Of a stretch of 53,635 bases of DNA, positions 1 through 38,828 are shown piece after piece. Source of the DNA: a virus (Duplodnaviria; Heunggongvirae; Uroviricota; Caudoviricetes). The stretch lies in the IMG/VR virus record IMGVR_UViG_2537561603_000004, positions 1 to 53,635 of that record; one strand, written 5' to 3'. Below the pieces are notes generated by a model. The model saw nothing but the letters and a program-made list of their open reading frames with translations. It searched no databases and had not been told where the DNA came from. The position numbers were made by a program, and so were the translations under genes. Within the stretch, counting starts at the first letter, position 1, and each line of letters opens with the position of its first letter.

Positions 1-1143
1 CTATGCTGTTTTGATATCTACGATAATCCAGTCTTTACCACGATCATCATTGTATCGGTCGGTCATTTTTCTGGATTTATGGCCTAACAACTTTTGCGTA
101 TCCAGACCCTGTTCCCGATATAACCGTTCTGACAGAGATCGCTGCTCATGAAATGTGGGCGCAGTTCCTTGCTCCCATTTTATGCCACATTTTTCCCGGG
201 CCTTTTTAAAAGCCGTTGTCAGAGTATTTGCAGAAACCTGGTCTCCTCTGTTTGCTTGAGAGGTAGTGTGACGGTAATGGACCAGATATTTACTAACAAC
301 AGCATCCCTGCACTGAGATATAACTTCACGAAGGGTAATATTCAGAGCATCGCATTTCAGGTTAAGCGGAATAGCAAGTTTTGAACCGGTTTTTTCCTGA
401 GTAATGTGCAACATGTCGTCCCATATATCAGAGAATTTCAAATTGCAGATATCGCCTAAACGTTGTCCAGTAACAAGAGCAAGTAGCATGCCGCATTTTA
501 AATAGGGCTGCCGTCTGCTTACGCTGTCAAATATTGCCTGCCATTCGGGCAGTGACAATCTTTGGCGGTTTACTCGATTTCGCGGTTGTTTTGTTGCCTG
601 CGCTGGGTTAAATCCTGGCGGAACATGTCCTGCGTGTTGTGCTTCTTTGAAGACGTCGATCAACACCATTCTCACGACTTGCGCCATCCTGTTATGACCT
701 TCAGCCTTTACAGCATCAATTATTTCGGCAATATCAAGTGCGGTAATATCCTTGAGGTGTTGCATTCCACAATGCTCACGGAAAAGACGAATGGGTTTGC
801 CTTTTTGCCGATAGGAGTTGGGTCTTAGTTCATTATGTTGCAGCCTGTCCTCTTGGATAGAAATATATTTATCAAGCCATTCTGTCACCGTAATGTCTGA
901 GCGCCTGCCTTTCATTCTTTCCAGACGCTCATTGACGCTTAATATTTGTCTGGTACGTTGTTCAGCAATAATGGTATTTGCTTCAGTAGCAACTTGTTTT
1001 GCTTCATTCTCATCAGTTCCTAAGCTATGAAAACGACCGGATAGTGGATGTTTGTATTGCCAATATACCTTTCCGGTTCGCTTATCTAATTTGCAATATA
1101 AATTGGGTATAGAGATTTTGTGAGATCGGGGTCTAGCAGCCAT
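1..1143 (-). CDS. int: Phage integrase, tyrosine recombinase (lambda Int family)
   Basis: 380-aa ORF; C-terminal catalytic motifs (TFHEQRSL H-x-x-R box, LLGHKS...DRY tyrosine region) and overall similarity to lambda Int; sits at prophage end next to xis. Confidence 0.9.
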   Translation of the reverse strand: MAARPRSHKISIPNLYCKLDKRTGKVYWQYKHPLSGRFHSLGTDENEAKQVATEANTIIAEQRTRQILSVNERLERMKGRRSDITVTEWLDKYISIQEDRLQHNELRPNSYRQKGKPIRLFREHCGMQHLKDITALDIAEIIDAVKAEGHNRMAQVVRMVLIDVFKEAQHAGHVPPGFNPAQATKQPRNRVNRQRLSLPEWQAIFDSVSRRQPYLKCGMLLALVTGQRLGDICNLKFSDIWDDMLHITQEKTGSKLAIPLNLKCDALNITLREVISQCRDAVVSKYLVHYRHTTSQANRGDQVSANTLTTAFKKAREKCGIKWEQGTAPTFHEQRSLSERLYREQGLDTQKLLGHKSRKMTDRYNDDRGKDWIIVDIKTA

Positions 1144-1369
1144 CAGCGATTATCCTTTGGAGTTTTGGGTTTGCGTTTATTGGGAGTTGCGGTTCTGCAA
1201 GCGTTCCTACAAAACGGGAATTTCGGTCAATCATCCAGTAGCGACCAACTTTTATAGCGGGTGGGGCCATCATTTTCCCTTGCGCGTATTTTTTCAGAAC
1301 TCGCTCACTTGGTGCTAAGTCCCCAAATTCTTCTTTAGCCCAGTCCTGTAAAGTGATTAGTCGAGACAT
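1133..1369 (-). CDS. xis: Excisionase (Xis-like)
   Basis: 78-aa ORF overlapping the int start, the typical int-xis arrangement; small basic protein. Confidence 0.6.
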   Translation of the reverse strand: MSRLITLQDWAKEEFGDLAPSERVLKKYAQGKMMAPPAIKVGRYWMIDRNSRFVGTLAEPQLPINANPKLQRIIADGC

Positions 1370-20911: not shown

Positions 20912-21125
20912 CGGGTCCTTTCCGTCGATCCAACAGGTTACGGGGCGGCGACCTCGCGGGTTTTCGCTATTTATGAAAATTTTCCGGTTTAAGGCGTTTC
21001 CGTTCTTCTTCGCCGTAACTTAATGTTTTTATTTAAAACACTCCCTGAAAAGAAAGGAAACGACAGGTGCTGAAAACGGGCTTTTTGGCCTCTGTCGTTT
21101 CCTTTCTCTGTTTTTGTCCGTGGAA
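20912..21125 (+). other. cos: Prophage cos site (cosQ-cosN-cosB); cosN at about 20943-20954
   Basis: Sequence matches the lambda cohesive-end region (gggcggcgacctcgcgggttttcgctatttatgaaaattttccggtttaaggcgtttccgttcttctt...) immediately upstream of nu1. Confidence 0.9.
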
Positions 21126-21131
21126 TGAACA

Positions 21132-21651
21132 ATGGAAGTCAACAAAAAGCAGCTGGCTGACATTTTCGGCGCGAGTATCCGTACTATTCAGAACTGGCAG
21201 GAGCAGGGAATGCCCGTTCTGCGAGGCGGTGGGAAGGGTAATGAGGTGCTTTATGACTCTGCCGACGTCATAAAATGGTATGCCGAAAGGGATGCTGAAA
21301 TTGAGAACGAAAAGCTGCGCCGGGAGGTTGAAGAACTGCGACAGGCCAGCGAGACAGATCTCCAGCCAGGGACTATTGAGTACGAACGCCATCGACTTAC
21401 GCGTGCGCAGGCCGACGCACAGGAGCTGAAAAATGCCAGAGACTCCGCTGAAGTGGTGGAAACCGCATTCTGTACTTTCGTGCTGTCGCGGATCGCAGGT
21501 GAAATTGCCAGTATTCTCGACGGGATCCCCCTGTCGGTGCAGCGGCGTTTTCCGGAACTGGAAAACCGACATGTTGATTTCCTGAAACGGGATATCATCA
21601 AAGCCATGAACAAAGCAGCCGCGCTGGATGAACTGATACCGGGGTTGCTGA

Positions 21652-21677
<26 letters not shown>
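21132..21677 (+). CDS. nu1: Terminase small subunit Nu1
   Basis: 181-aa translation near-identical to lambda Nu1. Confidence 0.95.
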
Positions 21678-27040: not shown

Positions 27041-27062
27041 GGCCGCCTGTGCGGCTTTTTTT
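27041..27062 (+). terminator. Hairpin plus T-run between D and E (possible attenuator)
   Basis: ggccgc-ctgt-gcggc followed by ttttttt. Confidence 0.35.
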
Positions 27063-27075
27063 ACGGGATTTTTTT

Positions 27076-27351
27076 ATGTCGATGTACACAACCGCCCAGC
27101 TGCTGGCGGCAAATGAGCAGAAATTTAAGTTTGATCCGCTGTTTCTGCGTCTCTTTTTCCGTGAGAGCTATCCCTTCACCACGGAGAAAGTCTATCTCTC
27201 ACAAATTCCGGGACTGGTAAACATGGCGCTGTACGTTTCGCCGATTGTTTCCGGTGAGGTTATCCGTTCCCGTGGCGGCTCCACCTCTGAATTTACGCCG
27301 GGATATGTCAAGCCGAAGCACTTAGCATGGCTTTCTGAGGCTTTCGTGTAG
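27076..27351 (+). pseudogene. E: Major capsid protein E, 5' portion (codons 1-81), interrupted by insertion at 27320/27321
   Basis: Translation MSMYTTAQLLAANEQKFKFDPLFL...TPGYVKPKH matches the lambda gpE N-terminus, then reads into unrelated sequence (LAWLSEAFV) and stops; the remainder of E resumes at 38043. Confidence 0.9.
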
Positions 27352-27448
27352 TTGCTGGTTTTTACACTTAATCTTTTGATAATAAAGAATAAGTCTATCT
27401 GGCGCTTTCACTGGATTTTCCTCGTTATCTGTGTGTTGCAATCATCTC

Positions 27449-27469
27449 TGTATTGCAGCTTGTATTGCT
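27449..27469 (+). repeat. Arm-type repeat, left copy (TGTATTGCAGCTTGTATTGCT)
   Basis: 21-bp sequence repeated in the same orientation at 37942-37962 (one mismatch), just inside each element end. Confidence 0.6.
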
Positions 27470-27483
27470 TTTTGGGGCTTAAA

Positions 27484-28719
27484 ATGGCTGGCGAGAACAA
27501 ACTGAGCGACAAAGCACTTAAAGGATATCTGGGGAAACCCAGAGAAAAGCAGATCACCATTGCTGATGGAAAGGGGCTTTCTATTCGTGTGAGTACCAAG
27601 GGGGCTGTGAGCTTTGTTTTCTTCTACAGGTTAGCAGGTGGCCGGGCTGCTCCGGTCTGGCTAACGTTGGGTAAATATCCTGATATGTCACTCAAACAGG
27701 CAAGGGAAAAGCGCGACGAGTGCCGTGGTTGGTTGGCTGACAAACGTGATCCGCGTATCCAGATTAAGATTCAGGCTGAAGAACGCTTAAAGCCGGTCAC
27801 AGTGGAGGATGCACTAAATTACTGGTATGAAAATTACTGTAAGGTGCGTCGTAAAACTCATGCTGTAACGCTTGGCAGATTTCGAAAGCATATTTTTCCC
27901 TATATCGGTCATTTGCCTGTAAATGACACTCACCTATATGAATGGCTGGACTGTTTTGACCGAATTAAACGTAATGCACCAGTTATGGCGGCGTATGTTT
28001 TTTCTGACACTAAATTAGCTCTTCGTTTTTGTCGGGTACGCCAGTACGCGACGTGTGATGCTTTAAAGGATTTGCGCATGAGTGATGTGGGGCAGATTGC
28101 AGGTAAGCGGGATCGGGTTCTGGATGAAGCCGAGCTGGGCCAGCTCTGGAAAGCAATTTTTGTCGAGCCTGATTTAAAACTAATGTCTGAATACACGCGA
28201 AAAATGTTTGTACTTTGTACAGTATTTGGATGTCGAATGAGTGAAGCCCGATTATCAGAATGGAGCGAATGGGATCTCGAAAGTTGGGTTTGGACTGTAC
28301 CAAAAGATCACTCAAAAACTGGTGTTGAAATCGTCAGACCAGTACCTGAAATTCTACGACAGTGGGTAACGGATGTTCACGAAGAGACAAAACATACTGG
28401 TTATGTGCTGGGAAGTCTGCGAATTAGAGAAAGCGTAAGCAAGATTGGGGGGAAAATCGGTAAACGTTTGGGCCATGAAAAACAATGGTCACTACACGAC
28501 CTTAGAAGAACGCTATCTACTCATCTAAGTGATCTCGGTGTTGAATTTTATGTAGTAGAACAACTGTTAGGCCATGCGCTACCTGGCGTGGCAGGTGTTT
28601 ACAACCGGAGTAAGTTTATGGCTAAAAAACTGGATGCTCTGGAACTCTGGACTACATATCTCAATAGCATCGCAGGTGCTGATTCAAAAGTGATAATCCT
28701 CAAACAAAAGGCTGGTTAA
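27484..28719 (+). CDS. Tyrosine integrase (P4-type, satellite-associated)
   Basis: 411-aa protein from the ATG at 27484; catalytic motifs HDLRRT and LLGHA...GVYNR; the N-terminal extension in the ORF track is unlikely to be coding. Confidence 0.85.
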   Translation: MAGENKLSDKALKGYLGKPREKQITIADGKGLSIRVSTKGAVSFVFFYRLAGGRAAPVWLTLGKYPDMSLKQAREKRDECRGWLADKRDPRIQIKIQAEERLKPVTVEDALNYWYENYCKVRRKTHAVTLGRFRKHIFPYIGHLPVNDTHLYEWLDCFDRIKRNAPVMAAYVFSDTKLALRFCRVRQYATCDALKDLRMSDVGQIAGKRDRVLDEAELGQLWKAIFVEPDLKLMSEYTRKMFVLCTVFGCRMSEARLSEWSEWDLESWVWTVPKDHSKTGVEIVRPVPEILRQWVTDVHEETKHTGYVLGSLRIRESVSKIGGKIGKRLGHEKQWSLHDLRRTLSTHLSDLGVEFYVVEQLLGHALPGVAGVYNRSKFMAKKLDALELWTTYLNSIAGADSKVIILKQKAG

Positions 28720-28720
28720 C

Positions 28721-28948
28721 ATGAAAAAAATGGCGATTGTTGATAAAAAGGGTCTGGAGTACATTCCTAACATCGATCGTATGATCCGTGAGAAAGAATG
28801 TCGGGAGCTAACCACTCTTGCGAACAGCACACGCTGGAAGCTGGAGAAGGAAGGGAAATTTCCTAAGCGGATCAAGATTGGCTCCACTGCTGTTGCATAT
28901 CGTCTTTCAGAAGTGCAGGCATGGATTCGAGGTGAGTGGGTAGTTTAA
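28721..28948 (+). CDS. AlpA-family transcriptional regulator/excisionase
   Basis: 75-aa protein with AlpA-like HTH (LANSTRWKLEKEGKFPKRIKIGSTAVAYRLSEVQAWI) directly after the integrase. Confidence 0.7.
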   Translation: MKKMAIVDKKGLEYIPNIDRMIREKECRELTTLANSTRWKLEKEGKFPKRIKIGSTAVAYRLSEVQAWIRGEWVV

Positions 28949-29017
28949 ATTATCTCAGAATAAAATATTATGAATTACTGATTTGAGAATTTGCACTCAA
29001 ATCAGTAATAACATTCT

Positions 29018-29554
29018 TTATAAGAGATTAAATCCAAATAAAGAGTAATCATATGCCGGGGTGCATTGCATCCCACTGAATATGCTGATATTTTTTTCTG
29101 TTTCTATCCTTTTTTCAATAAGTTGTTGTATATTTTTACAGTACAATTTGTGTGTGATGTTATTATCGTAAGCCTGATATAACAACGTCAATGTTGACGC
29201 TATGAAACATGCAGAAAGAAAATGAACTAGTACATGTGAACGTTTTTTGGTTGTCCATGATGCATTCGCTTGTGAAATATAAATCATTCTGAGAAGGATA
29301 ATGATGATAGACAGTAACAGACCACTCAATAAAATAAGCATTGGGTTTGCGTATTTTATTAATGGTTGAGAGCAAAAAACCATTATGGCTCCTGTGACTG
29401 CGTATGAGAAAAAGGAGTAATTAAACTTTTTACTTCTTCTCTCAAGTATTTTAATTTCATCTTGTGTGGGGGTTTTAGATGCCTCTAATATAAGTTTATT
29501 GAATGTTTCTATTATCTTGTTTTTTATGTTTGTGGCTATTTTTTTTAGATTCAT
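29018..29554 (-). CDS. Multi-pass membrane protein of unknown function (accessory cargo)
   Basis: 178-aa ORF with ~4 hydrophobic helices in a strongly AT-rich segment (about 28950-29870); own RBS (gggag). Confidence 0.5.
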   Translation of the reverse strand: MNLKKIATNIKNKIIETFNKLILEASKTPTQDEIKILERRSKKFNYSFFSYAVTGAIMVFCSQPLIKYANPMLILLSGLLLSIIIILLRMIYISQANASWTTKKRSHVLVHFLSACFIASTLTLLYQAYDNNITHKLYCKNIQQLIEKRIETEKNISIFSGMQCTPAYDYSLFGFNLL

Positions 29555-29904
29555 AGTATTCTAACTCCCTTAACTTATTTATTACTTTCTCTTTATGATA
29601 AGAGAGGGGAATGACTTGGTAAAGTGATTTGTAATTAATAATGATAATCCTTGCGATAAATATTTCTGCAAGTTATTTATCTGTTTGTTGCTATCTTGTT
29701 AAGCGTTGGGTGTGGTTTATGTTTGGAGCGACTTTATTTAATCGTGATTTTATGGATCTATATTTATATCCTGTAAGATAAGCGCATGTTAGTTCAGGAG
29801 TAGTGTCAGATAAAATTATTCGGAGTAGAACTACCTTTTCTGTTTATTGCCAGTATTTACATAGCAATGCGCCGTAGTTACTCACATCACGGCGCTGATA
29901 GTAA

Positions 29905-30207
29905 TTATTCAGATTCTTTGGCTTTACGCCGCTGGAGTTCTTCACGAGCGACGGCTACGAGTTGCCCGATTTCCTCCGCTGCCTTGATGCCGATTTGTTC
30001 GACCTTAGCTAAGGCATCCAGTGAAGACACGAGGGGATTTTCTCCGCTTCCTTCTGCCTGGCGGCGGGCGATCTCACCGCGCATGGCGGTTACTATGAAT
30101 CCGGCGTTGCTTTCGCCGTCCAGTTTTACGGATTCCATGCCCTCCATAACATCGTGGGGAACCCTGATCGTTGTCATTTGCGATTTTGCATTTTTGTATA
30201 CAGACAT
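29905..30207 (-). CDS. Ribbon-helix-helix (CopG/Arc-like) DNA-binding protein, putative repressor
   Basis: 100-aa ORF; N-terminal TTIRVPHDVMEGMESV pattern resembles an RHH beta-strand/helix; divergent from the rightward replication operon with operator-like repeats between. Confidence 0.45.
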   Translation of the reverse strand: MSVYKNAKSQMTTIRVPHDVMEGMESVKLDGESNAGFIVTAMRGEIARRQAEGSGENPLVSSLDALAKVEQIGIKAAEEIGQLVAVAREELQRRKAKESE

Positions 30208-30226
30208 AGTTAATCACCAATTTGTT

Positions 30227-30329
30227 ATGTGTATATCACTATACACAAAAGTGAGATATAAAAACACTTGCAATGTATATCACCACAATATAATGTATAT
30301 CTCACATCATGGTCGCTATGTATCTCACA
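30227..30329. promoter_or_regulatory. Divergent promoter region with repeated TGTAT(A)TC(A/T)CA operator-like motifs
   Basis: Direct repeats at 30227-30240, 30273-30284, 30293-30306 and 30318-30329, plus an inverted element (atatcac ... gtgagatat). Confidence 0.5.
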
Positions 30330-30415
30330 ATGATCGATTCATAAAAACGACGAAACCCGGCAGTGCGCGAACACTAACCGGGCTTCTAACCAAACCGTTA
30401 AACGAGGTAACGATT

Positions 30416-30781
30416 ATGGCTGGAACACAGCATACCCAAACTCACCCTAAATTTATATACACCTTTCTGGCACTACACCACGACCGCATGGCAGATGGAG
30501 CAACTACGGTACATGTTGCCGCTGACACGCTGGTTGATGCCCGCAAGATGGTTAAGGAGATGGGCTATACTGCGGCTTTCTGGAAAGGGCGTGAAGAAAA
30601 CACGCTGTTTATTCAGAAATGCGAAAACAATTTCATCTGGCGTTTTATCGCCCTGAGCACCGCACAACCACGCGTAATACACATCGAGGCCGCCAGCGAA
30701 CAGGAAGCCCGCCAGCAATTCCCAACTGGCTACGTGATGATATTCGCCGCCCGTATTCGTCAGGAGGTGTGCCATGAATGA
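30416..30781 (+). CDS. Hypothetical protein (first gene of rightward operon)
   Basis: 121-aa ORF from the ATG at 30416; the upstream part of the 304-aa track ORF spans the promoter and is rejected. Confidence 0.4.
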   Translation: MAGTQHTQTHPKFIYTFLALHHDRMADGATTVHVAADTLVDARKMVKEMGYTAAFWKGREENTLFIQKCENNFIWRFIALSTAQPRVIHIEAASEQEARQQFPTGYVMIFAARIRQEVCHE

Positions 30782-30998
30782 TCTTTATTTTAAAGTGCTG
30801 ACACATGCTGAAAACGCGCTCGTTTGTGGCAAAAATATGCGAGAAATCTTATCAACCTGGCTTGATGGGACAACAAATGCGGAACACGATGAACGGGATG
30901 CTAATTTAGCTGGAGCGTTAATTACGTTACTTGATCCTGTCATCAAAGAGCTGGATGAAGCTATAAAAATACACGACCAGAGCTATACCGGAGAATAA
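30774..30998 (+). CDS. Hypothetical protein
   Basis: 74-aa ORF with strong RBS (aggaggtg), overlapping the upstream gene stop. Confidence 0.4.
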   Translation: MNDLYFKVLTHAENALVCGKNMREILSTWLDGTTNAEHDERDANLAGALITLLDPVIKELDEAIKIHDQSYTGE

Positions 30999-31001
30999 AA
31001 A

Positions 31002-31289
31002 ATGAAAAATAAATTTTCTGGCTTTATTGCCAGCGGTCAAACTCATTCAAAAATCAGCCTTGGGGATATTTTCAAAGACAGCTATGGCTATCGGGTAAAG
31101 ATTATTTCGGTTGATGATCGTCGTGTCTCTTATTTGCGTGATGGTTATGATTTTGAATGTGTTATGCCGCGTCAGCAGTTCGAAAGAGATTTCATTCTGG
31201 TAAAAAATTGCAAGACAGATAATCAGAGGCGTGCCGCAGGCTATATCCGTAAAATTCGGGCAATGTTAGTTGCCGGAGGTAACAAATGA
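31002..31289 (+). CDS. Hypothetical protein
   Basis: 95-aa ORF overlapping the primase start. Confidence 0.4.
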   Translation: MKNKFSGFIASGQTHSKISLGDIFKDSYGYRVKIISVDDRRVSYLRDGYDFECVMPRQQFERDFILVKNCKTDNQRRAAGYIRKIRAMLVAGGNK

Positions 31290-33106
31290 AACGTGCTCCG
31301 AACTTAAAATACCAACCGCGCGACAAAATGACGGAAGTCATCATTTTTGCTGGCAGTGATGCCTGGAGCCATGCAAAAGAATGGAATGAATGGGCAGGTA
31401 AGCATATTGCAGCAGATGATACACCACCAGTCATTCTGGGTACGGAACAACTGGAAAACCTGGATGATATGCAAATTATCGATGAAGGCCGTCATTATGT
31501 GCGTGTTTATCGTGCCGGAAAGATTGCAGAGAAAAGTCTGACGAAGGTTGCGACATTACTTGCTATTGCAGGCGTAAAGGAAGCACGTTGTTACCGTAGC
31601 TTTGTTGATCGAGAGCCTGAAGACTGGACTCCGCGCCTTGTCGGCCTAAAAGCTGAAGCGGAGCATGGGGAAAGTCTGGTGATTGAACTGCCAGTTAAGA
31701 AGGCTGAGCGCAAAAATGACGAGCGTGCTTCATCTTTGGCGTTGAATCAGATGGGGGCCAGCCAGCGCGGTGAAGTTCTCCTTGCACATTACGGCGGCGA
31801 ACTGGCAATCAATGCCGACTCTGACACCGTTCATCATTACAACGGCGTTGTATGGGAGCCGGTTCAGGATAAAGAGTTACAGCGTGCTATGGCGCAGATT
31901 TTCATTGATGCGGAGATCAGCTATTCGCAGAACGCTATTAAATCGGCGGTAGATACCATGAAGTTAAGTTTGCCTGTAATGGGGAATACAGCCCGTAACC
32001 TGATTGGATTCAGTAACGGGGTATTTGATACCAGAACTGGTAACTTTCGGGAGCATAACAAAAACGACTGGTTGTTAATTGCCAGTGAATTACCTTTCAG
32101 CCCACCAGCAGAGGGGGAAACGCTGGCAACACATGCGCCGAATTTCTGGAAGTGGTTGCGCCGTTCGGTGGCTGAGAATGACCGCAAGGCAGATCGCGTA
32201 CTGGCGGCATTATTCATGGTGCTGGCGAACCGGTACGACTGGCAGTTATTCATTGAGGTAACAGGGCCGGGGGGAAGTGGTAAAAGTGTGATGGCGGAGA
32301 TTTGCACCATGCTGGCGGGTAAGGCTAATACAGTATCAGCAAGCATGAAGGCGCTGGAAGATGCAAGGGAACGTGCGTTAGTGGTTGGCTTTTCGCTGAT
32401 TATCATGCCGGATATGACCCGCTACGCTGGTGATGGGGCAGGGATTAAGGCCATTACAGGCGGTGACAAGGTGGCAATTGACCCGAAACACAAAGCCCCC
32501 TATTCAACGCGTATTCCGGCAGTAGTGCTGGCGGTTAACAATAACGCCATGTCATTCAGTGACCGCAGCGGGGGGATCTCACGTCGTCGGGTGATATTCA
32601 ATTTTTCGGAAGTTGTACCGGAGAACGAACGCGATTCGATGCTGGCGGAAAAAATAGAAGGTGAGCTGGCGGTAGTGATTCGCCATCTGCTTACACGGTT
32701 TGCTGATCAGGACGAAGCCAGACGCCTGTTATATGAGCAGCAGAAATCTGAAGAAGCACTGGCGATAAAGCGAGAGGGGGATTCGCTGGTGGACTTCTGC
32801 GGCTATCTCATGGCATCGGTAATGTGTGATGGCCTGTTAGTGGGTAATGCTGAAATTGTGCCATTCAGCCCACGCAGGTATCTCTATCATGCCTATCTGG
32901 CTTATATGAGGGCACATGGGTTTGGTAAACCTGTAACACTGACGCGCTTCGGTAAAGATATGCCGGGGGCAATGGCGGAATATGGCAGGGAGTATATGAA
33001 ACGGAAAACGAAGCACGGTTTGCGTTCAAACGTGACACTGACGGAGGAATCAGAAGACTGGATGCCATCATGTGTATCGGTCACTAATGACGATAGCAAA
33101 AATTAA
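31286..33106 (+). CDS. Primase-helicase (P4/PICI-type Pri-Rep, SF3 helicase C-terminal domain)
   Basis: 606-aa protein with Walker A (GPGGSGKS) and following Walker B-like region; RBS ggaggt; followed immediately by iterons. Confidence 0.75.
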   Translation: MKRAPNLKYQPRDKMTEVIIFAGSDAWSHAKEWNEWAGKHIAADDTPPVILGTEQLENLDDMQIIDEGRHYVRVYRAGKIAEKSLTKVATLLAIAGVKEARCYRSFVDREPEDWTPRLVGLKAEAEHGESLVIELPVKKAERKNDERASSLALNQMGASQRGEVLLAHYGGELAINADSDTVHHYNGVVWEPVQDKELQRAMAQIFIDAEISYSQNAIKSAVDTMKLSLPVMGNTARNLIGFSNGVFDTRTGNFREHNKNDWLLIASELPFSPPAEGETLATHAPNFWKWLRRSVAENDRKADRVLAALFMVLANRYDWQLFIEVTGPGGSGKSVMAEICTMLAGKANTVSASMKALEDARERALVVGFSLIIMPDMTRYAGDGAGIKAITGGDKVAIDPKHKAPYSTRIPAVVLAVNNNAMSFSDRSGGISRRRVIFNFSEVVPENERDSMLAEKIEGELAVVIRHLLTRFADQDEARRLLYEQQKSEEALAIKREGDSLVDFCGYLMASVMCDGLLVGNAEIVPFSPRRYLYHAYLAYMRAHGFGKPVTLTRFGKDMPGAMAEYGREYMKRKTKHGLRSNVTLTEESEDWMPSCVSVTNDDSKN

Positions 33107-33116
33107 ACTTATGGAA

Positions 33117-33345
33117 TAACTGTTCACCACTGTTCACCCTGTCATAAATATCTTTTATATCAGTATATTATAGGGTGAACAGTTATTTATGAACTGTTCA
33201 CCAAACTATTCACTGTTCACCTTTTTGATTGTTTATTGAGCTTCAAGGGTGAACAGTGGTGAACAGTTGGTGAATAGTTTTTGTGAAACTGTTCACCAAT
33301 TAACATTATGAATTAAAAGAGAAAATATCAAAAGGTGAACAGGTG
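33117..33345. repeat. Replication origin iterons (CTGTTCACC / GGTGAACAG, about 10 copies in both orientations)
   Basis: Dense array of 9-bp repeats immediately downstream of the primase-helicase gene. Confidence 0.8.
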
Positions 33346-33393
33346 AAGGGTTAAAACGCAAAAATTTTAATTTACTGCTGTGAGATAAAGCCT

Positions 33394-33639
33394 ATGACAG
33401 CGAAGCACACAAAAAAATCACAATCGCACGCCCTTGATTTGACGGAACACTGGTTAAGGGTGTCGATAAAAATCATCGACCGCAACGCCGGGGAAGGATA
33501 CGCGAAAGCACATCCCGAACTGATTAGCGCATTCATGACAACGGCGGCTGCAAACTTTGCCACTCTGACCGAACGGGAGATTGCTGAAGCGGAGGAAGTG
33601 ACAACAATCAATATTAAGTCCGGAGAGCAGGCAGCATGA
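33394..33639 (+). CDS. Hypothetical protein
   Basis: 81-aa ORF between ori and ssb. Confidence 0.35.
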   Translation: MTAKHTKKSQSHALDLTEHWLRVSIKIIDRNAGEGYAKAHPELISAFMTTAAANFATLTEREIAEAEEVTTINIKSGEQAA

Positions 33640-34085
33640 CGGCGCAAATATCAGTTTACGGGCGGTTGGTGGACGACCCGCAGACAAAACAGACCAGCAA
33701 GGGCACCCCCATGACGCTGGCGCGTATGGCGGTATCACTGCCCTGCAGTCAGTCGGATGACGGTCAGGCGACGATGTGGTTATCTGTCCTGGCGTTTGGC
33801 AGACAAGCCGACGCGCTGGCAAAGCATCACAAAGGCGAACTCCTGAGCGTGGCGGGTAACATGCAGATGAGCCAGTGGACTGGACAGAACGGCGAAACGC
33901 GGCAGGGCTGGCAGGTTATCGCAGACAGCGTAATCAGTGCGCGATCGGTGCGACCGGGCGGCAATAAAGGCCAACAGGGGCAGGCTACTGACGCACTGAA
34001 CAGAGCAAAACAACAGGCAGATCAGCAAGGAAGCCAGCCACCAGTGGGAGATAATGAGCAATGGGGAGATGATATCCCGTTTTAA
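33636..34085 (+). CDS. ssb: Single-stranded DNA-binding protein (SSB)
   Basis: 149-aa protein with OB-fold-like N-terminus (ISVYGRLVDDPQ...), Gly/Gln-rich linker and the SSB-signature acidic tail DDIPF. Confidence 0.7.
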   Translation: MTAQISVYGRLVDDPQTKQTSKGTPMTLARMAVSLPCSQSDDGQATMWLSVLAFGRQADALAKHHKGELLSVAGNMQMSQWTGQNGETRQGWQVIADSVISARSVRPGGNKGQQGQATDALNRAKQQADQQGSQPPVGDNEQWGDDIPF

Positions 34086-34302
34086 ATATTGCCAATAAAA
34101 AAAGGCCGGAAAAAATAAATTTTCCGGCATGCTACATAAATCCCGACCAAAGGGAGTGAAGATATTAACACTAATTTTCCGCACTGAAGTTGTCACCCCA
34201 AAACTTTATACAACATTGCACTCGGTTGCATGTATTCGCATGACAAATATCGGTGATAGCATATATCCACAATTATTTTTAATGAATGCAAAGAGGATGC
34301 GT

Positions 34303-35343
34303 ATGGTTGATTTATATTCGCCTACTCAGCTTGTACAGGTGGTTAATGCTGTAGATGTACAAAAACAACTAAATGCGTTGTTTACCAGTTTGTTTTTTAC
34401 TCGCTCGGTAATGTTTGAATCGCGCGATATTATTCTTGATACAATCGACGATCCAAATATCCCAATTGCAGCGTTTTGTTCTCCTATGGTGGGTAGTAAA
34501 GTTTCACGTGACGAAGGGTACGAATCAAAAACAATTCGTCCAGGCTATATGAAGCCGAAAAGCAGCATTGATCCAAATAAGTTAGCTGTGCGCCCTGCTG
34601 GTGTATCACCTGAGCAATACAATGCTTTTGGGGCGCGTAATATTAAAGTTAAACAGGCGATTGTAAATCAAGCTAAAGCTATTCGTGCACGTATTGAATG
34701 GCTTGCTGTTCAGGCAATCACAACGGGGAAAAATATCATTGAGGGCGATGGTATTGAACGTTATGAGCTGGACTGGAATATTAAACCACAAAATATCATC
34801 ACTCAGTCTGGCGGTGCTGAGTGGTCAGGTAAGGATAAAGAAACTTTTGATCCAAATGATGATATTGAGAGCTACGCAGAATTTAGTGAGGGCGTCACTA
34901 ATATTATCATTATGGGCGGTAATGTATGGAAGAAATACCGTTCATTCAGAGCGATAAAAGAGGCTCTGGATACCCGTCGTGGTTCTAATTCCGAACTGGA
35001 AACGGCCCTTAAAGACCTTGGTGATTCGGTGAGTTTTAAAGGGTATATGGGCGATGTTGCGATTGTTGTTTACAGCGGGCGTTATACCGACGAGGACGGA
35101 ACAGAAAAACATTTCCTTGATCCTGATTTGATGGTGCTTGGCAATACGGCTCTTCAGGGGATTGTCGCCTATGGCGGTATTCAGGATCCGGAGCTAATCC
35201 GAATGGGGCTGACTAAAGCCGAACTTGCACCGAAAAACTATATTGTGCCTGGTGATCCGGCTATTGAATATGTGCAGACACATTCAGCACCACAGCCAAT
35301 ACCGGCCCGCATCAATCGTTTTGTTACCGTTCGCATTGGCTAA
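34303..35343 (+). CDS. Element-encoded major capsid protein, divergent homologue of lambda gpE
   Basis: ~346-aa protein with clear but partial similarity to lambda gpE along its length (e.g. TRRGSNSELETA.KDLG...GDVAIVVYSG); ATG at 34303 with RBS aagagga. Confidence 0.8.
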   Translation: MVDLYSPTQLVQVVNAVDVQKQLNALFTSLFFTRSVMFESRDIILDTIDDPNIPIAAFCSPMVGSKVSRDEGYESKTIRPGYMKPKSSIDPNKLAVRPAGVSPEQYNAFGARNIKVKQAIVNQAKAIRARIEWLAVQAITTGKNIIEGDGIERYELDWNIKPQNIITQSGGAEWSGKDKETFDPNDDIESYAEFSEGVTNIIIMGGNVWKKYRSFRAIKEALDTRRGSNSELETALKDLGDSVSFKGYMGDVAIVVYSGRYTDEDGTEKHFLDPDLMVLGNTALQGIVAYGGIQDPELIRMGLTKAELAPKNYIVPGDPAIEYVQTHSAPQPIPARINRFVTVRIG

Positions 35344-35352
35344 GGGGGAGCA

Positions 35353-35694
35353 ATGGCTACTCATTACACTGAACTCATGGCTGGCACTGAAGCACTGGTG
35401 ACTACGCTGGGGATATTTTCAGCTAATAAAGGGGTAATTCCTGCATTTACGCCACTGATGCAGGAAGATGCAACAGGTGCACTGGTGGTATGGGATGGTT
35501 CGAGCGTAGGTAAAGCGGTTTATGTTTCCGCTGTACAAATCGACACCGCGAAAAAAACACAGGCTCAGGTCTATAAGACAGGTGTCTTAAATGTTGATGC
35601 TCTGAACTGGCCTGAGTCTGTTAAAGAACTGTCAGTAAAGGTTGCAGCGTTTGTTGGCTCAGGTATTTCTGTTCAGCCGCTGGCTCGTGTGTAA
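35353..35694 (+). CDS. Element-encoded decoration protein, divergent homologue of lambda gpD
   Basis: 113-aa protein alignable to lambda gpD (PAFTPLMQEDATGALVVWDGSSVGKAV... versus [27 protein letters not shown]...). Confidence 0.7.
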   Translation: MATHYTELMAGTEALVTTLGIFSANKGVIPAFTPLMQEDATGALVVWDGSSVGKAVYVSAVQIDTAKKTQAQVYKTGVLNVDALNWPESVKELSVKVAAFVGSGISVQPLARV

Positions 35695-35705
35695 AGGGGG
35701 ATACA

Positions 35706-36089
35706 ATGCAGAATGATTACAATGACCTTAAGCCAATTGCCGAAATGATGTACCCGAATCAAGCTGTAGAGGAATTAAAAGCTATCGCTGACAAAATGTG
35801 TTTAAGCGAGCGCCTTGTTGATATGAATCAGGTGATGGAAATTACAACCCTGAGTCGTCGTACACTGCTAAACCTTGAGGCTAGTGGAGAGTTCCCGGAG
35901 CGTGTGCAGGTTACGGAAGGGCGTAAGGCCTGGTATTTAAGTGAAGTGATCGACTGGATAAATAATATTCCTCGCGCTTCTGAATATTGCCGCGTACCTG
36001 TCCCAAAAAAGCCAGATGCGGCGCTATGCCTCAAGATTGAGCGTGTACGCCGCAATGCACGGGATGGTCGCTATAAGCTGATTGGTTGA
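35706..36089 (+). CDS. AlpA/MerR-like winged-HTH protein upstream of the element cos site
   Basis: 127-aa protein; segment MEITTLSRRTLLNLEASGEFPERVQVTEGRKAWYLSEVIDWI is AlpA-like. Confidence 0.5.
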   Translation: MQNDYNDLKPIAEMMYPNQAVEELKAIADKMCLSERLVDMNQVMEITTLSRRTLLNLEASGEFPERVQVTEGRKAWYLSEVIDWINNIPRASEYCRVPVPKKPDAALCLKIERVRRNARDGRYKLIG

Positions 36090-36109
36090 TGAAATTAGGG
36101 CCCGCTCTG

Positions 36110-36320
36110 GCTGGCGGGTCCTTTCCGGCGATCCAGAACGTTACGGGGCGTCAGGCGCGCAGTTTTTTGCTATTTGTGAAAATTTTCCTGTTTAAGGCGT
36201 TTCCGTTCTTCTTCGCCGTAACTTAATGTTTTTATTAAAAACACCCCCTAAAAAGAAAGGAAACGACAGGTGCTAAAAACAGGCTTTTTGGCCTCTGTCG
36301 TTTCCTTTCTCTGGTTTTGT
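36110..36320 (+). other. Second cos-like site (cosQ/cosB conserved, cosN region divergent)
   Basis: ~210 bp alignable to the prophage cos at 20912-21125; the cosN-equivalent reads gggcgtcaggcg instead of gggcggcgacct. Confidence 0.8.
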
Positions 36321-36687
36321 TGCCATCCGTCGCGGTCTATCACCAGAAAAAATCTTATCCCTGAGTTGAATCAGGCACTATTCAGAAGCGGCCAATAACG
36401 CGCCGCTAGCTTCACTTCATAGTTATGGCCTACTTCTGCGCCATTGCAATTGCTTTATGCGCCTTGATGGTGGAATATAGAGCAAGCAGTTTGCGAATAA
36501 CAAAGTTTCATATGTTTTTTGCTGTGTGGCTAGACAACTTTACAGCAGAGTTTTGTGTCAGTTCTTTATGTGTGCAAGCAAGCTTGAGGGGGAATTACTT
36601 CTGGCTGCATCTTTGCTTAAGAACAGCAATAATTTAATCATAAGGAAATGTATATAAGCCTGATTAAATTTCAGGCTTATTGAAATG

Positions 36688-37830
36688 TTAACTCCTTATT
36701 AGAGAGTAAATTCCATCCTCTTTAAGGAAGTCTATTACTTCAAAGAATGAGATAAAGAATTCCCAAGAACCAAAAGCATATGCATGAATTTCGTAAGGTG
36801 CAAAATGGAATCTAAATCCATCACTATTTATTGTGAACGAGTCTAAGTTACTATCCATGATACCCGTTGCAAACGTACTAATGTCGTCCTCACTTGGTTT
36901 TTCACCAGTTTTCTCCCAAAATTCACGAGCTGATTCAGAGATTATTTTTTGTTTTATCTTATTAATCGCTTCTTGCTCTTTCCCTTCGGTAAATACATCC
37001 CATAAACTAAATTTGTATGCGTAGTCATCCTTGGTTATTACGAAATTACTAGTTTCAAAATGACTGTTAGGGTGTGCTGCTCCCGCACCATACCAATGTA
37101 CGGAATGAAGGATGCTCATGACATTTTCGTTACAGTATGAGATGTTATAACTTTCATTATAGGAACTAGTGTAAGTGTGTTTATATTCTTCATCCCAATA
37201 TGGTGTTCCTGGCCATAGTGATGTGCGTTCAGAAAAAATATGTAAAGCCGCTTTTCCTGAAAAGTAATCACTAATGAGTTTTGCTGATTTCGGTAATGTA
37301 TGGCTTTCAATTCTTGGATATGCTATTTCAATTTCATGCCCTGGGATCTTGTTATATTCTTCCTTGAAAACCTCGCTGCTAAAGTTAAATGGCCCATAAG
37401 TGATACCTTGAGATATTTCAAGTTTTTGTTGCGATGCTGCTAATCTTAAAGATCTAGATAAAATGTCCCAACCATCATTTCTCTTAAAATCAATGAATTG
37501 GAGCTTGCTTGATATGTAGGCGGGTACTTCGCAATCATCAATAAGTAATGGTATCACGAACACATCATCTGGTTTGTAATACTTTAGTTTATCAATGGCG
37601 TCATTTATTTCGCGGCGAATATAACCATTTTTCTGAGTGCTCACTTTGCTAAGGATAAGGATTATCAAGTTTGAATTAGCGAAGTTTTTTTGGATTTCAT
37701 AATCCCAGTTTACGCCAGCGGGTATATCTTTTACATCCATCCAAGGGGAATATCCTCCACTTTTTAGCCTTTCATAGATTTCTTCAGTTATCGTTTCATC
37801 TTCTTTTGCATGAGCAAGAAAAATTTTCAT
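36688..37830 (-). CDS. TIR-domain protein with uncharacterised C-terminal domain (candidate anti-phage effector)
   Basis: 380-aa ORF; N-terminal ~120 aa fit a bacterial TIR fold (MKIFLAHAKEDE...LKSGGYSPWMDVKDIPAGVNWDYEI...SNLIILILSKVS...REINDAI); AT-rich, own RBS (aagga); between the element cos and its right end. Confidence 0.7.
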   Translation of the reverse strand: MKIFLAHAKEDETITEEIYERLKSGGYSPWMDVKDIPAGVNWDYEIQKNFANSNLIILILSKVSTQKNGYIRREINDAIDKLKYYKPDDVFVIPLLIDDCEVPAYISSKLQFIDFKRNDGWDILSRSLRLAASQQKLEISQGITYGPFNFSSEVFKEEYNKIPGHEIEIAYPRIESHTLPKSAKLISDYFSGKAALHIFSERTSLWPGTPYWDEEYKHTYTSSYNESYNISYCNENVMSILHSVHWYGAGAAHPNSHFETSNFVITKDDYAYKFSLWDVFTEGKEQEAINKIKQKIISESAREFWEKTGEKPSEDDISTFATGIMDSNLDSFTINSDGFRFHFAPYEIHAYAFGSWEFFISFFEVIDFLKEDGIYSLIRS

Positions 37831-37941
37831 TGAATATTCCTTTATAATTTAACTAATTAAGTGAAGGAGGCTTTACTTGGCTGTGTTAGAAAAAATTCGG
37901 TTTGTTTTTTGTACGATGCCAAGAAGGCTTTTCCCTAACCA

Positions 37942-37962
37942 TGTATTGCAGCATGTATTGCT
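37942..37962 (+). repeat. Arm-type repeat, right copy (TGTATTGCAGCATGTATTGCT)
   Basis: Same-orientation copy of the 27449-27469 repeat. Confidence 0.6.
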
Positions 37963-38042
37963 ACGTAATTCTGCACCCTCTCATTTATAAAATAAATCTC
38001 TGTTAAATCAAGTATCTTTTTTCTATTTGACTCATGTAACCC

Positions 38043-38828
38043 AAGCATGAAGTGAATCCGCAGATGACCCTGCGTCGCCTGCCGGATGAAGATCCGCAGA
38101 ATCTGGTGGACCCGGCTTACCGCCGCCGTCGCATCATCATGCAGAACATGCGTGACGAAGAGCTGGCCATTGCTCAGGTCGAAGAGATGCAGGCAGTTTC
38201 TGCCGTGCTTAAGGGCAAATACACCATGACCGGTGAAGCCTTCGATCCGGTTGAGGTGGATATGGGCCGCAGTGAGGAGAATAACATCACGCAGTCCGGC
38301 GGCACGGAGTGGAGCAAGCGTGACAAGTCCACGTATGACCCGACCGACGATATCGAAGCCTACGCGCTGAACGCCAGCGGTGTGGTGAATATCATCGTGT
38401 TCGATCCGAAAGGCTGGGCGCTGTTCCGTTCCTTCAAAGCCGTCAAGGAGAAGCTGGATACCCGTCGTGGCTCTAATTCCGAGCTGGAGACAGCGGTGAA
38501 AGACCTGGGTAAAGCGGTGTCCTATAAGGGGATGTATGGCGATGTGGCCATCGTCGTGTATTCCGGACAGTACGTGGAAAACGGCGTCAAAAAGAACTTC
38601 CTGCCGGACAACACGATGGTGCTGGGGAACACTCAGGCACGCGGTCTGCGCACCTATGGCTGCATTCAGGATGCGGACGCACAGCGCGAAGGCATTAACG
38701 CCTCTGCCCGTTACCCGAAAAACTGGGTGACCACCGGCGATCCGGCGCGTGAGTTCACCATGATTCAGTCAGCACCGCTGATGCTGCTGGCTGACCCTGA
38801 TGAGTTCGTGTCCGTACAACTGGCGTAA
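38043..38828 (+). pseudogene. E: Major capsid protein E, 3' portion (codons ~80-341), separated from 5' portion by the insertion
   Basis: Translation KHEVNPQMTLRRLPDEDPQNL...FVSVQLA matches lambda gpE from residue ~80 to the C-terminus, in frame with the core. Confidence 0.9.

What the first reader, a model, noticed from the sequence alone, without database searches (positions are those of the whole stretch)
35706..36089. AlpA-like winged-HTH protein immediately upstream of the element cos: candidate packaging-redirection factor
The gene sits directly before the element cos-like site, mirroring nu1 after the helper cos, and encodes a wHTH of the same general kind as the Nu1 DNA-binding domain. 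It could steer the helper terminase to the element cos, analogous to Rpp or Ppi functions in E. coli PICIs, or act as a late activator.
Basis: inference. Interest (0 to 1): 0.6.

Follow-up and report, generated by a model that had tools for sequence, protein, structure and literature searches.

The report
Second AlpA-type regulator in satellite capsid operon
The gene is a real, conserved DNA-binding protein of the AlpA/excisionase family. It ends the capsid-gene operon of a phage satellite embedded in its helper prophage, and it most likely controls that operon rather than steering DNA packaging.

Summary
Window 35706-36089 encodes a 127-aa AlpA-family winged-HTH protein ("alpA2") whose stop codon lies 28 bp before a lambda-like cos.

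The setting is already published. The window is a lambdoid prophage whose capsid gene E is split by a helper-embedded PICI of the 11capE type (Tommasini et al. 2023). alpA2 is a second AlpA paralogue, distinct from the canonical alpA next to int.

The block capE-decD-alpA2-hairpin-cos is conserved in every relative examined, down to 46% identity.

Packaging redirection is not supported:
- alpA2 is unrelated to Rpp or Nu1 beyond the generic fold.
- The element's cosB is identical to the helper's.
- Near-identical alpA2 genes sit next to different cosB types, with a satellite-type Nu1-family terS gene, a lambda-type nu1, or none, and ten cohesive-end alleles.

An array of 3-5 direct repeats with a 10-bp period, followed by an extended -10, precedes capE in all alpA2 lineages. 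It is the only such array in the window and is missing from the EcCICFT073 lineage, which lacks alpA2.

Best reading (about 0.45, inferred): alpA2 is the autoregulatory regulator of the satellite's late capsid operon, and cos adjacency is an operon-end by-product. Interest is modest.

The parts
34105..34128 (.). Palindromic GC hairpin with T/A runs after ssb. It is a bidirectional terminator-like site that insulates the capsid operon from the replication genes.
   Evidence: terminator scan; sequence
34204..34243 (+). Array of four direct repeats at an exact 10-bp period (CTTTATACAA / CATTGCACTC / GGTTGCATGT / ATTCGCATGA; core TTRYAC). Candidate operator of the capsid operon.
   Evidence: Conserved in position and phase in all alpA2 lineages. 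It is the only cluster of three or more phased hits in the 53.6-kb window on either strand. It is absent from 80 EcCICFT073-type modules that lack alpA2.
34254..34262 (+). Extended -10-like element TGATAGCAT (TGnTAGCAT). The fourth repeat overlaps the -35 position (TTCGCA, 16-nt spacer).
   Evidence: conserved as TGnTA(G/A)nAT in relatives. Consensus match only; the start site is not mapped.
34303..35343 (+). Satellite major capsid gene (capE, 346 aa, lambda gpE family). The true start is 34303, not the 34129 of the mechanical ORF.
35353..35694 (+). Satellite head-decoration gene (decD, 113 aa, lambda gpD family), 9 nt after capE.
35706..36089 (+). alpA2, the finding: an AlpA/Xis-family winged HTH (residues about 36-87) with an N-terminal two-helix extension and a C-terminal basic helix (about 105-119). 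It is the last cistron of the capE-decD-alpA2 operon.
36097..36122 (+). GC-rich 10-bp-stem hairpin directly after the alpA2 stop. Its 3' arm overlaps cosQ. Relatives have a hairpin or canonical intrinsic terminator at the same place.
36117..36312 (+). Element cos: cosQ 36117-36135; cohesive end GGGCGTCAGGCG 36146-36157; cosB R3 about 36196-36215, R2 about 36254-36272, R1 about 36293-36310. cosB is identical to the helper's; the cohesive end differs at 5 of 12 bases.
   Evidence: (I3)
28721..28948 (+). Canonical alpA (alpA1, 75 aa) immediately after the integrase gene. Paralogue of the finding: about 33-37% identity over the wHTH in blast and MAFFT alignments, and 37% in the hhalign match.
27484..28719 (+). 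Tyrosine integrase of the helper-embedded satellite (411 aa). The element splits helper gene E (N-terminal part 27049-27351, C-terminal part 38052-38828).
20914..21108 (+). Helper prophage cos (cohesive end GGGCGGCGACCT at 20943-20954), followed by nu1 at 21132-21677.

Best explanation
alpA2 is a second AlpA/Xis-family winged-HTH protein, specific to this satellite capsid module. It is the last cistron of the satellite's own late operon (promoter/operator - capE - decD - alpA2 - hairpin).

The most likely mechanism is that AlpA2 binds head-to-tail, as Xis-, RdfS- and BldC-type proteins do, to the 3-5 direct repeats spaced 10 bp apart. These repeats span about -65 to -27 of an activator-type promoter: an extended -10 with no good -35. 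In this way AlpA2 would autoregulate expression of the capsid, decoration and alpA2 genes, most plausibly positively.

In the embedded state, helper late read-through would supply the first AlpA2. After excision, AlpA2 would keep the operon on.

Its position next to cos arises because cos lies just past the end of this operon. The cos/terS segment to its right is exchanged freely by recombination with helpers, without any change in alpA2.

Shown: the operon structure, family and fold, the conserved repeat array, its uniqueness in the window, and the decoupling from cosB/TerS type and from integrase type. Inferred: that AlpA2 is the protein that binds the array, and the sign of the regulation.
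For: 1. Operon anatomy. Gaps of 9 and 11 nt separate the three cistrons. A terminator-like hairpin lies upstream at 34105-34128 and a hairpin directly after alpA2.
2. Family and fold. Pfam Phage_AlpA; hhalign against canonical AlpA 95.8%. The AF2 model has pLDDT 79, above 90 in the core. Best Foldseek matches are the GIsul2 excisionase 8c3t (42% identity, rmsd 0.9 A), RdfS, BldC and MerR-type domains. From established knowledge, these proteins bind direct repeats as head-to-tail multimers.
3. Conserved operator. A phased TTRYAC array plus extended -10 lies upstream of capE in every alpA2 lineage, including the three deepest ones (L011/L012, L176, L292). A 10-bp deletion in the window type keeps the helical phase. 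In L292 the repeat sequence has drifted (TTAGAC/TTGTGC) while the array is kept and the recognition helix also differs. This pattern fits a co-evolving element-encoded binder better than a host factor.
4. Uniqueness. The array is the only such cluster in the 53.6-kb window.
5. Association. It is absent from 80 EcCICFT073-type capE modules that lack alpA2. Of the IMG/VR contigs with the exact operator and enough downstream sequence, 94 of 96 carry alpA2. The two exceptions are an IS3 insertion and a capE/E recombination deletion.
6. Only candidate in the module. capE, decD and alpA2 are the only genes shared by all these satellites, and alpA2 is the only DNA-binding one.
7. Precedent. The canonical PICI AlpA is a positive autoregulator (PMC11773190; PMC10111431).
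Against: No binding or expression data exist. The operator-alpA2 association is confounded by linkage, because both belong to one co-inherited module, and the alpA2-less comparison is effectively a single lineage.

The PWM was built from the site itself. The repeat core TTGCAC resembles a -35 hexamer and lambda CII sites (TTGC-N6-TTGC), so a helper or host factor could be the binder.

Co-variation between the recognition helix and the repeat sequence is weak: L176 has helix changes but keeps TTGCAC/TTATAC.

The -10 and start site are predicted only, and the general promoter scan did not list this site.
Confidence: 0.45

Rival explanations
1. Packaging redirection or cos accessory factor. AlpA2 binds at or near the element's cos, or binds helper Nu1, and biases the helper terminase toward satellite DNA, analogous to Rpp or Ppi.
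For: The stop codon lies 20-70 bp from cosQ in all loci examined. The fold class is shared with the gpNu1 and Rpp DNA-binding domains (1j9i rank 47, 6hn7_B rank 48). The gene is kept in satellites that have lost their own terS. The satellite cohesive end differs from the helper's.
Against: - No sequence relation to Rpp or Nu1.
- The gene is on the wrong side of cos and is separated from it by a hairpin or terminator.
- cosB here is identical to the helper's, so Nu1 should bind unaided.
- 46 of 95 relatives carry a Nu1-family terS with its own GGTGGTGG-type cosB, which already accounts for packaging specificity.
- alpA2 at 94% identity or more is found with three or more cosB types and ten cohesive-end alleles, so there is no co-variation.
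- No repeat array or other alpA2-specific conserved block lies in the cos region. cosQ and cosN are equally conserved in EcCICFT073 and in helpers that lack alpA2.
- AlpA2 has no counterpart of the TerL-binding C-terminus of Nu1.
Confidence: 0.08
2. Recombination directionality factor. AlpA2 is an excisionase or integration-directionality cofactor for the satellite integrase, or a surrogate Xis for the helper, like alpA_1 of EcCIMP1.
For: The closest solved structures are excisionases (8c3t, RdfS 8dgl, Pukovnik Xis), and PHROG 2790 is labelled excisionase/regulator. Satellite excision from the helper is late, about 2 h (paper), which would fit a late-expressed factor. EcCIMP1 provides a precedent for a second AlpA acting as an excisionase (PMC11773190).
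Against: - The AlpA2 HTH is 89-91% identical in L003 and L013, whose integrases are at most 31% identical over a short stretch, and in L002, where no integrase match was found in the 9 kb held upstream. It is 77% identical in L011, whose integrase is 24% identical.
- Its divergence tracks capE/decD, not int.
- A canonical small AlpA or HTH_17 gene already sits by int in most loci.
- The attP doubled motif tracks the HES integrase, not alpA2.
- No repeat cluster lies near attL or attR.
- The helper Xis (1133-1369, minus strand) is lambda-Xis type and unrelated.
- There is no PDB sequence hit to TorI 1Z4H, the EcCIMP1 alpA_1 type.
Confidence: 0.12
3. Trans-acting regulator of other targets. AlpA2 represses or activates helper or host genes (interference, as PLE CapR does), while another factor (helper CII-like, host, or canonical AlpA) recognises the capE-upstream repeats.
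For: The repeats contain TTGC-N6-TTGC, the lambda CII half-site arrangement (CII site from established knowledge). The nearly invariant HTH could reflect a conserved target in lambdoid helpers.
Against: No second phased cluster occurs anywhere in the helper part of the window. L011/L012 and L292 arrays lack TTGC yet keep the architecture. Helpers of L011/L012 have different tail modules. The repeats persist in satellites without an HES-type AlpA1 or Int.
Confidence: 0.12
4. Read-through factor. AlpA2 loaded at P_capE lets RNA polymerase pass the hairpin after alpA2, so that transcription crosses cos into the satellite terS. This would be a Q-like logic for the satellite.
For: A hairpin or terminator always separates alpA2 from cos-terS. 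In 54 of 95 loci (46 satellite-type, 8 lambda-type) a Nu1-family terS/nu1 gene follows cos, and I identified no promoter for it.
Against: The only AlpA-named antiterminator (P. aeruginosa AlpA) is a 21Q-like eight-helix protein of a different fold (PMC9371919). It does not appear among the fold matches. Elements like this window have no terS downstream yet keep alpA2.
Confidence: 0.05

Closest known systems
Canonical AlpA of Gram-negative PICIs (EcCICFT073 alpA; here alpA1, 28721-28948) and CP4-57 AlpA (Pfam PF05930)
   Same: Same Pfam family and wHTH fold. Encoded by a PICI-type satellite. The proposed mode, positive autoregulation of its own operon, is the one reported for PICI AlpA (PMC11773190, PMC10111431).
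   Different: The gene is not next to int. It is the last gene of the late capsid operon. It is 127 aa, with N-terminal (1-35) and C-terminal (91-127) extensions missing from the 70-85-aa canonical proteins. Identity to alpA1 is only about 33-37%. It forms a narrow clade: 3 full-length clusters at 50% identity among 1.84 billion representatives.
Excisionases/RDFs of the Xis-MerR winged-helix class (GIsul2 excisionase 8c3t, RdfS 8dgl, Pukovnik Xis 4j2n) and the related regulator BldC (6ama)
   Same: Best structural matches. These proteins characteristically bind arrays of direct repeats head-to-tail, which matches the 10-bp phased array upstream of capE.
   Different: No linkage to any one integrase or att site. 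Extra terminal helices. The candidate target is a promoter, not an att arm.
Rpp (RppA c1503 / RppC, PDB 6hlk, 6hn7) of EcCICFT073-type PICIs
   Same: A small wHTH protein encoded next to a PICI cos, in a satellite with the same capE-decD late zone.
   Different: Rpp is TerS-derived (PHROG 57). It lies downstream of cos in the terS position, and its PICI lacks helper-type cosB. alpA2 is Xis/AlpA-derived, lies upstream of cos, and here cosB equals the helper's. In EcCICFT073 the slot before cos holds an unrelated 137-aa protein resembling the C-terminal part of the head maturation protease family.
alpA_1 of EcCIMP1 (second AlpA paralogue of a PICI; PMC11773190)
   Same: A precedent that a PICI can carry two AlpA-family genes with different roles. 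The second lies at the far end of the element and is dispensable for excision and transfer.
   Different: EcCIMP1 alpA_1 is on the opposite strand, resembles the helper's TorI-type Xis, and acts as a helper excisionase surrogate. alpA2 is co-oriented inside the capsid operon and unrelated to this helper's lambda-type Xis.
gpNu1 (lambda TerS) DNA-binding domain, 1j9i
   Same: Same broad winged-HTH fold class (rank 47, TM 0.57 normalised to the target).
   Different: No profile similarity (0.1%). The HTH is not N-terminal. There are no self-assembly or TerL-binding domains. Genuine Nu1 paralogues exist separately in related satellites.

Membership tests
AlpA / Phage_AlpA (PF05930) winged-HTH regulators and excisionases | Sequence match to the family profile above the curated threshold | tested here: met
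   35.8 bits against a cut-off of 21, E 7.5e-9, covering profile positions 2-51 of 51. hhalign to canonical AlpA of the same elements: 95.8%, E 6.5e-9.
AlpA / Phage_AlpA (PF05930) winged-HTH regulators and excisionases | Beta-alpha-alpha-beta-beta-alpha winged-helix fold of the Xis/MerR type | tested here: met
   AF2 model with core pLDDT above 90: H40-47, H51-60, wing 67-77, H78-86. Foldseek top hit 8c3t, rmsd 0.9 A, 42% identity.
AlpA / Phage_AlpA (PF05930) winged-HTH regulators and excisionases | Canonical PICI position immediately downstream of int (master regulator) | tested here: not met
   That position is occupied by alpA1 (28721-28948). alpA2 lies 7 kb away, at the end of the late zone.
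AlpA / Phage_AlpA (PF05930) winged-HTH regulators and excisionases | Sequence-specific DNA binding with transcriptional or recombination-directionality activity | not testable with these tools
   Only a candidate operator was identified.
Rpp (redirecting phage packaging) proteins | Homology to RppA/RppC | tested here: not met
   No PDB sequence hit to 6hlk at E up to 1, whereas EcCICFT073 RppA hits it at 5e-31. No TerS PHROG hit, unlike RppA.
Rpp (redirecting phage packaging) proteins | Gene in the terS-equivalent position downstream of the PICI cos | tested here: not met
   alpA2 is upstream of cos, with a hairpin in between. Downstream there is no terS or rpp remnant.
Rpp (redirecting phage packaging) proteins | PICI cos with helper-like cosQ/cosN but a cosB unlike the helper's | tested here: not met
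   R3, R2 and R1 are identical to the helper's.
Rpp (redirecting phage packaging) proteins | Heterodimerises with helper TerS and blocks helper plaque formation | not testable with these tools
   Needs two-hybrid or pull-down assays and plaque assays.
Terminase small subunit, Nu1 family (PF07471) | Nu1 profile match, including the oligomerisation and TerL-binding regions | tested here: not met
   No Pfam or PHROG TerS hit. hhalign 0.1% against an alignment of helper and satellite Nu1 proteins.
Helper-embedded PICI (HE-PICI, site E:Phage_cap_E:80) - the element that carries the gene | Integrase-first element inserted co-oriented in helper gene E, with the attP doubled motif, alpA, primase, a late zone and cos | tested here: met
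   E is split at Pfam positions 78 and 95. The doubled motif lies at 27449-27469 and 37942-37962. Gene order is confirmed and matches the description of 11capE.

The most novel reading that the evidence does not exclude
AlpA2 is a satellite-specific late factor with a dual role. It switches on the satellite's own capsid operon, and it also acts at the operon-end hairpin/cosQ junction, either by allowing transcription through cos into the satellite terS or by marking the left side of cos for the terminase. Capsid production and packaging of satellite DNA would then be coupled by one protein, a packaging-linked function not known for the AlpA/Xis family.
Probability: 0.07. Interest if true: 0.65.

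Novelty: new variant of a known kind. Interest (0 to 1): 0.35.

Why it matters
Gram-negative PICIs are thought to carry one AlpA master regulator. This late-zone paralogue, with a conserved candidate operator in front of the satellite's own capsid genes, points to a separate, self-contained control circuit for satellite-encoded capsid proteins.

That circuit is portable. The same promoter-capE-decD-alpA2 block occurs in helper-embedded PICIs and in chromosomal PICIs with unrelated integrases.

It provides a concrete, testable handle (one protein, one 40-bp array) on when and why these satellites make their own gpE- and gpD-like proteins, whose role is still unknown.

Packaging specificity in this family instead appears to be settled by exchangeable cos/terS cassettes.

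Tried and rejected
- **Rpp or Nu1 homology.** Searched by sequence, profile and fold; only the generic wHTH class is shared.
- **Degraded terS or rpp after the element cos.** tblastn found nothing.
- **P. aeruginosa 'AlpA' antiterminator as a model.** It is a 21Q-like eight-helix protein, so the shared name is a coincidence.
- **Helper-Xis surrogate, as in EcCIMP1.** The helper Xis here is lambda type and unrelated.
- **First structure prediction.** A 15-sequence alignment gave pLDDT 49 and was unusable. Adding generic AlpA sequences raised it to 79.
- **Genome-contig scan.** It returned only 4 loci, and the IMG/VR scan returned only near-identical copies. Diverged lineages had to be reached through protein look-ups.
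- **Co-variation between recognition helix and repeat sequence.** Suggestive in L292 but not consistent in L176, so it is not used as proof.
- **Other libraries.** NCBIfam, PADLOC and Rfam gave nothing for the gene or its flanks.
- **Close homologues in deposited phage genomes.** None found.
- **PDB code 8C3T in the literature.** No paper was held.

Full report
**What is there**

Window 35706-36089 (+) is a 127-aa ORF with a Shine-Dalgarno sequence, 11 nt after the preceding gene. RefSeq annotates it identically, as WP_001178672.1, a helix-turn-helix transcriptional regulator.

It matches Pfam Phage_AlpA above threshold, the PDB chain 8c3t and PHROG 2790. The family keeps its length and sequence across Enterobacteriaceae. 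Its HTH core is under strong purifying selection: dN is 0.04-0.05 where dS is saturated, and omega is 0.06 for window versus L005.

Directly downstream lie a GC hairpin (36097-36122) and a complete lambda-like cos (36117-36312). The two 261-bp cos regions (helper 20880-21140, element 36080-36340) are 89% identical in the alignment. cosB R3/R2/R1 are identical, but the 12-base cohesive end differs: GGGCGTCAGGCG against GGGCGGCGACCT.

**Context**

The window is a lambdoid prophage (int 1-1143, cos, nu1, A, B, C, D) whose major capsid gene E is split (27049-27351 and 38052-38828) by a 10.7-kb element. The element's gene order is:
- tyrosine integrase, then a canonical 75-aa alpA
- an Icd-like gene and small ORFs
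- D5-type primase and ssb
- gpE-like capE and gpD-like decD
- the finding, then cos
- a reverse-strand TIR gene

This is the published helper-embedded PICI type '11capE', in site E:Phage_cap_E:80 (Tommasini, Mageeney and Williams). Those authors noted the 258-bp cos shared with the helper, and the 'integration zone' int+AlpA. They do not discuss a second AlpA gene in the late zone.

The finding is therefore a second AlpA paralogue, here called alpA2. Pick et al. state that typical E. coli PICIs encode only one AlpA.

**Synteny**

The same order is kept in every relative examined: capE (346 aa), decD (113 aa), alpA2, a hairpin or terminator, then cosQ-cosN. The relatives are:
- four species-level genomes
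- E. coli variants
- Salmonella, Buttiauxella and Scandinavium
- 80 IMG/VR contigs
- two deeper lineages at about 46-50% identity, one of them a fis-site PICI

A profile search of 1.84 billion representatives finds only three full-length clusters of this subfamily. Scores then fall to generic AlpA wHTH matches. No close homologue exists in deposited phage genomes.

**Is it a packaging-redirection factor?**

The evidence is against it.

1. EcCICFT073 RppA, fetched for comparison, hits PDB RppC at 5e-31 and the TerS PHROG. alpA2 hits neither.
2. Profile-profile comparison gives 0.1% against an alignment of helper and satellite Nu1 proteins, and 95.8% against canonical AlpA.
3. Rpp sits after cos, in the terS position, in PICIs whose cosB is unlike the helper's. 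alpA2 sits before cos, behind a hairpin, and this element's cosB equals the helper's.
4. Among 95 alpA2 loci:

| Configuration after cos | Loci |
|---|---|
| GGTGGTGG-type cosB plus a satellite Nu1-family terS with a diverged DNA-binding domain | 46 |
| Lambda-type cosB plus a full lambda-type nu1 | 8 |
| Lambda-like or other cosB, no terS (as in this window) | 38 |
| Contig too short to tell | 3 |

Ten cohesive-end alleles occur, and all of this variation sits next to alpA2 proteins that are 94-100% identical. Packaging specificity is thus carried by an exchangeable cos/terS cassette, and alpA2 does not co-vary with it.

5. The only DNA conserved with alpA2 on that side is cosQ/cosN, which is equally conserved in helpers and in EcCICFT073, which lacks alpA2.

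A role at cos cannot be excluded without experiments. I put it at about 0.08.

**What else is conserved with it**

Upstream of capE, after a terminator-like hairpin that closes the replication genes (34105-34128), lies an array of four direct repeats at an exact 10-bp period (34204-34243, core TTRYAC). An extended -10 (TGATAGCAT, 34254-34262), an RBS and the capE ATG at 34303 follow.

The array and its phase are conserved in all alpA2 lineages. A 10-bp deletion in the window type preserves helical phase. In the deepest lineage the repeat sequence has drifted (TTAGAC/TTGTGC) but five phased copies remain, and the AlpA2 recognition helix also differs.

A PWM scan of the whole window finds no other cluster of three or more phased sites. 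There is none at either cos, at the att sites, or in the helper. Eighty EcCICFT073-type capE modules, which lack alpA2, lack the array.

Of the IMG/VR contigs with an exact operator match and enough downstream sequence, 94 of 96 carry alpA2. The two exceptions are an IS3 insertion and a capE/E recombination deletion.

**Not an integrase partner**

The AlpA2 HTH is 89-91% identical in L003 and L013, whose integrases are at most 31% identical over a short stretch. The same holds for L002, where no integrase match was found in the 9 kb held upstream. Its divergence follows capE/decD. The published attP doubled motif (27449-27469, 37942-37962) follows the HES integrase, not alpA2. Most loci have a separate small AlpA or HTH_17 gene by int.

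**Structure**

With a 54-sequence alignment, AF2 gives pLDDT 79, above 90 in the core. The elements are:
- two N-terminal helices
- a beta-alpha-alpha-wing-alpha winged HTH (residues 37-86)
- a linker
- a basic C-terminal helix (105-119)

Foldseek ranks the GIsul2 excisionase 8c3t first (42% identity, 0.9 A), then RdfS, BldC, MerR/CarH N-domains and Pukovnik Xis. gpNu1 (1j9i) and the TerS chain of 6hn7 appear only at ranks 47-48, with E about 0.5.

From established knowledge of Xis, RdfS and BldC, the top-ranked proteins bind direct repeats head-to-tail. That matches the array found.

**Most likely mechanism (inferred, about 0.45)**

AlpA2 is the module's own regulator, binding the phased array to control capE-decD-alpA2. 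The control is probably positive, as reported for canonical PICI AlpA. The promoter has an extended -10 but no good -35, and the sites span roughly -65 to -27.

In the embedded state, helper late read-through could prime it. After excision it would sustain capsid-gene expression.

Cos adjacency follows from cos lying just beyond the operon's end. In EcCICFT073 the equivalent slot holds an unrelated 137-aa protein whose only named match is to the C-terminal part of the head maturation protease family.

**Caveats**

The pairing rests on co-inheritance within one module. The alpA2-less control is essentially one lineage. TTGC-N6-TTGC also resembles lambda CII sites and -35 hexamers. No binding or expression data exist.

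**Verdict**

This is a real, conserved, uncharacterised paralogue in an already described satellite type. It is a new variant of a known kind, of modest interest.

Noticed in passing
window 27352-38051 (E split at 27049-27351 / 38052-38828): The element carrying the gene is a PICI-type satellite inserted inside the helper prophage's major capsid gene E, and it carries its own gpE and gpD homologues. This matches the published helper-embedded PICI '11capE' (Tommasini et al. 2023).
   Followed up: yes
window 36146-36157 vs 20943-20954; loci L001-L095: The element cos is a mosaic. cosB is identical to the helper's, but the 12-nt cohesive end differs at 5 positions. Across 95 related satellites there are 10 cohesive-end alleles, recombined freely with three or more cosB types. 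Whether lambda-type terminases nick all these cosN variants, and whether unlike ends keep satellite and helper DNA from annealing, is open.
   Followed up: partly
L005:9547-10089 (also L001, L002, L007, L008, L011-L015); cosB at L005:9400-9545: About half of the related satellites encode their own Nu1-family small terminase. Its N-terminal DNA-binding domain has diverged while the C-terminal half is conserved. It follows a cosB built on a CTGGTGGTGG motif. EcCICFT073's Rpp-type cos has the reverse complement (CACCACCACCAC, L010:2605-2620). This looks like a TerS-swap route to packaging specificity, parallel to Rpp.
   Followed up: partly
window 36688-37830 (-): A TIR-DUF3298 gene (weak PADLOC matches to TIR defence proteins) occupies the slot between cos and attR. 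Relatives carry Abi_C or other cargo there, so this is a variable accessory or defence hotspot.
   Followed up: partly
L010:2084-2497 (EcCICFT073): In EcCICFT073 the gene between decD and cos is an acidic 137-aa protein. It matches the C-terminal part (profile positions 495-567 of 583) of the head maturation protease PHROG 53, which may correspond to the scaffold region. The last cistron of the capsid operon therefore differs between PICI lineages.
   Followed up: no
window 27449-27469 and 37942-37962: The doubled motif TGTATTGCAGC(T/A)TGTATTGCT lies in both att arms, as published for HE-PICIs. Its unit TATTGCA resembles the capE-upstream repeat ATTGCAC but has a 12-bp period, and it tracks the integrase clade rather than alpA2.
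   Followed up: partly
L211:4144-5355 and L200:6608-8069: Two derivative elements. In L211 the satellite capE has recombined with helper E, giving a chimeric capsid gene and deleting decD-alpA2-cos. In L200 an IS3-family element truncates decD.
   Followed up: partly
window 33105-33340: Dense direct and inverted GGTGAACAG-type iterons lie downstream of the primase gene. This is presumably the satellite replication origin.
   Followed up: no
window 35975-35991 and 36374-36390: A 17-nt inverted repeat (94% complementary) brackets the cos region. One arm lies inside alpA2 and the other 60 bp past R1. It may be chance.
   Followed up: no
window 29018-29554 (-): A 178-aa predicted membrane protein with no family match lies between alpA1 and the YlcI/Icd-like genes. 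It is variable among relatives.
   Followed up: no
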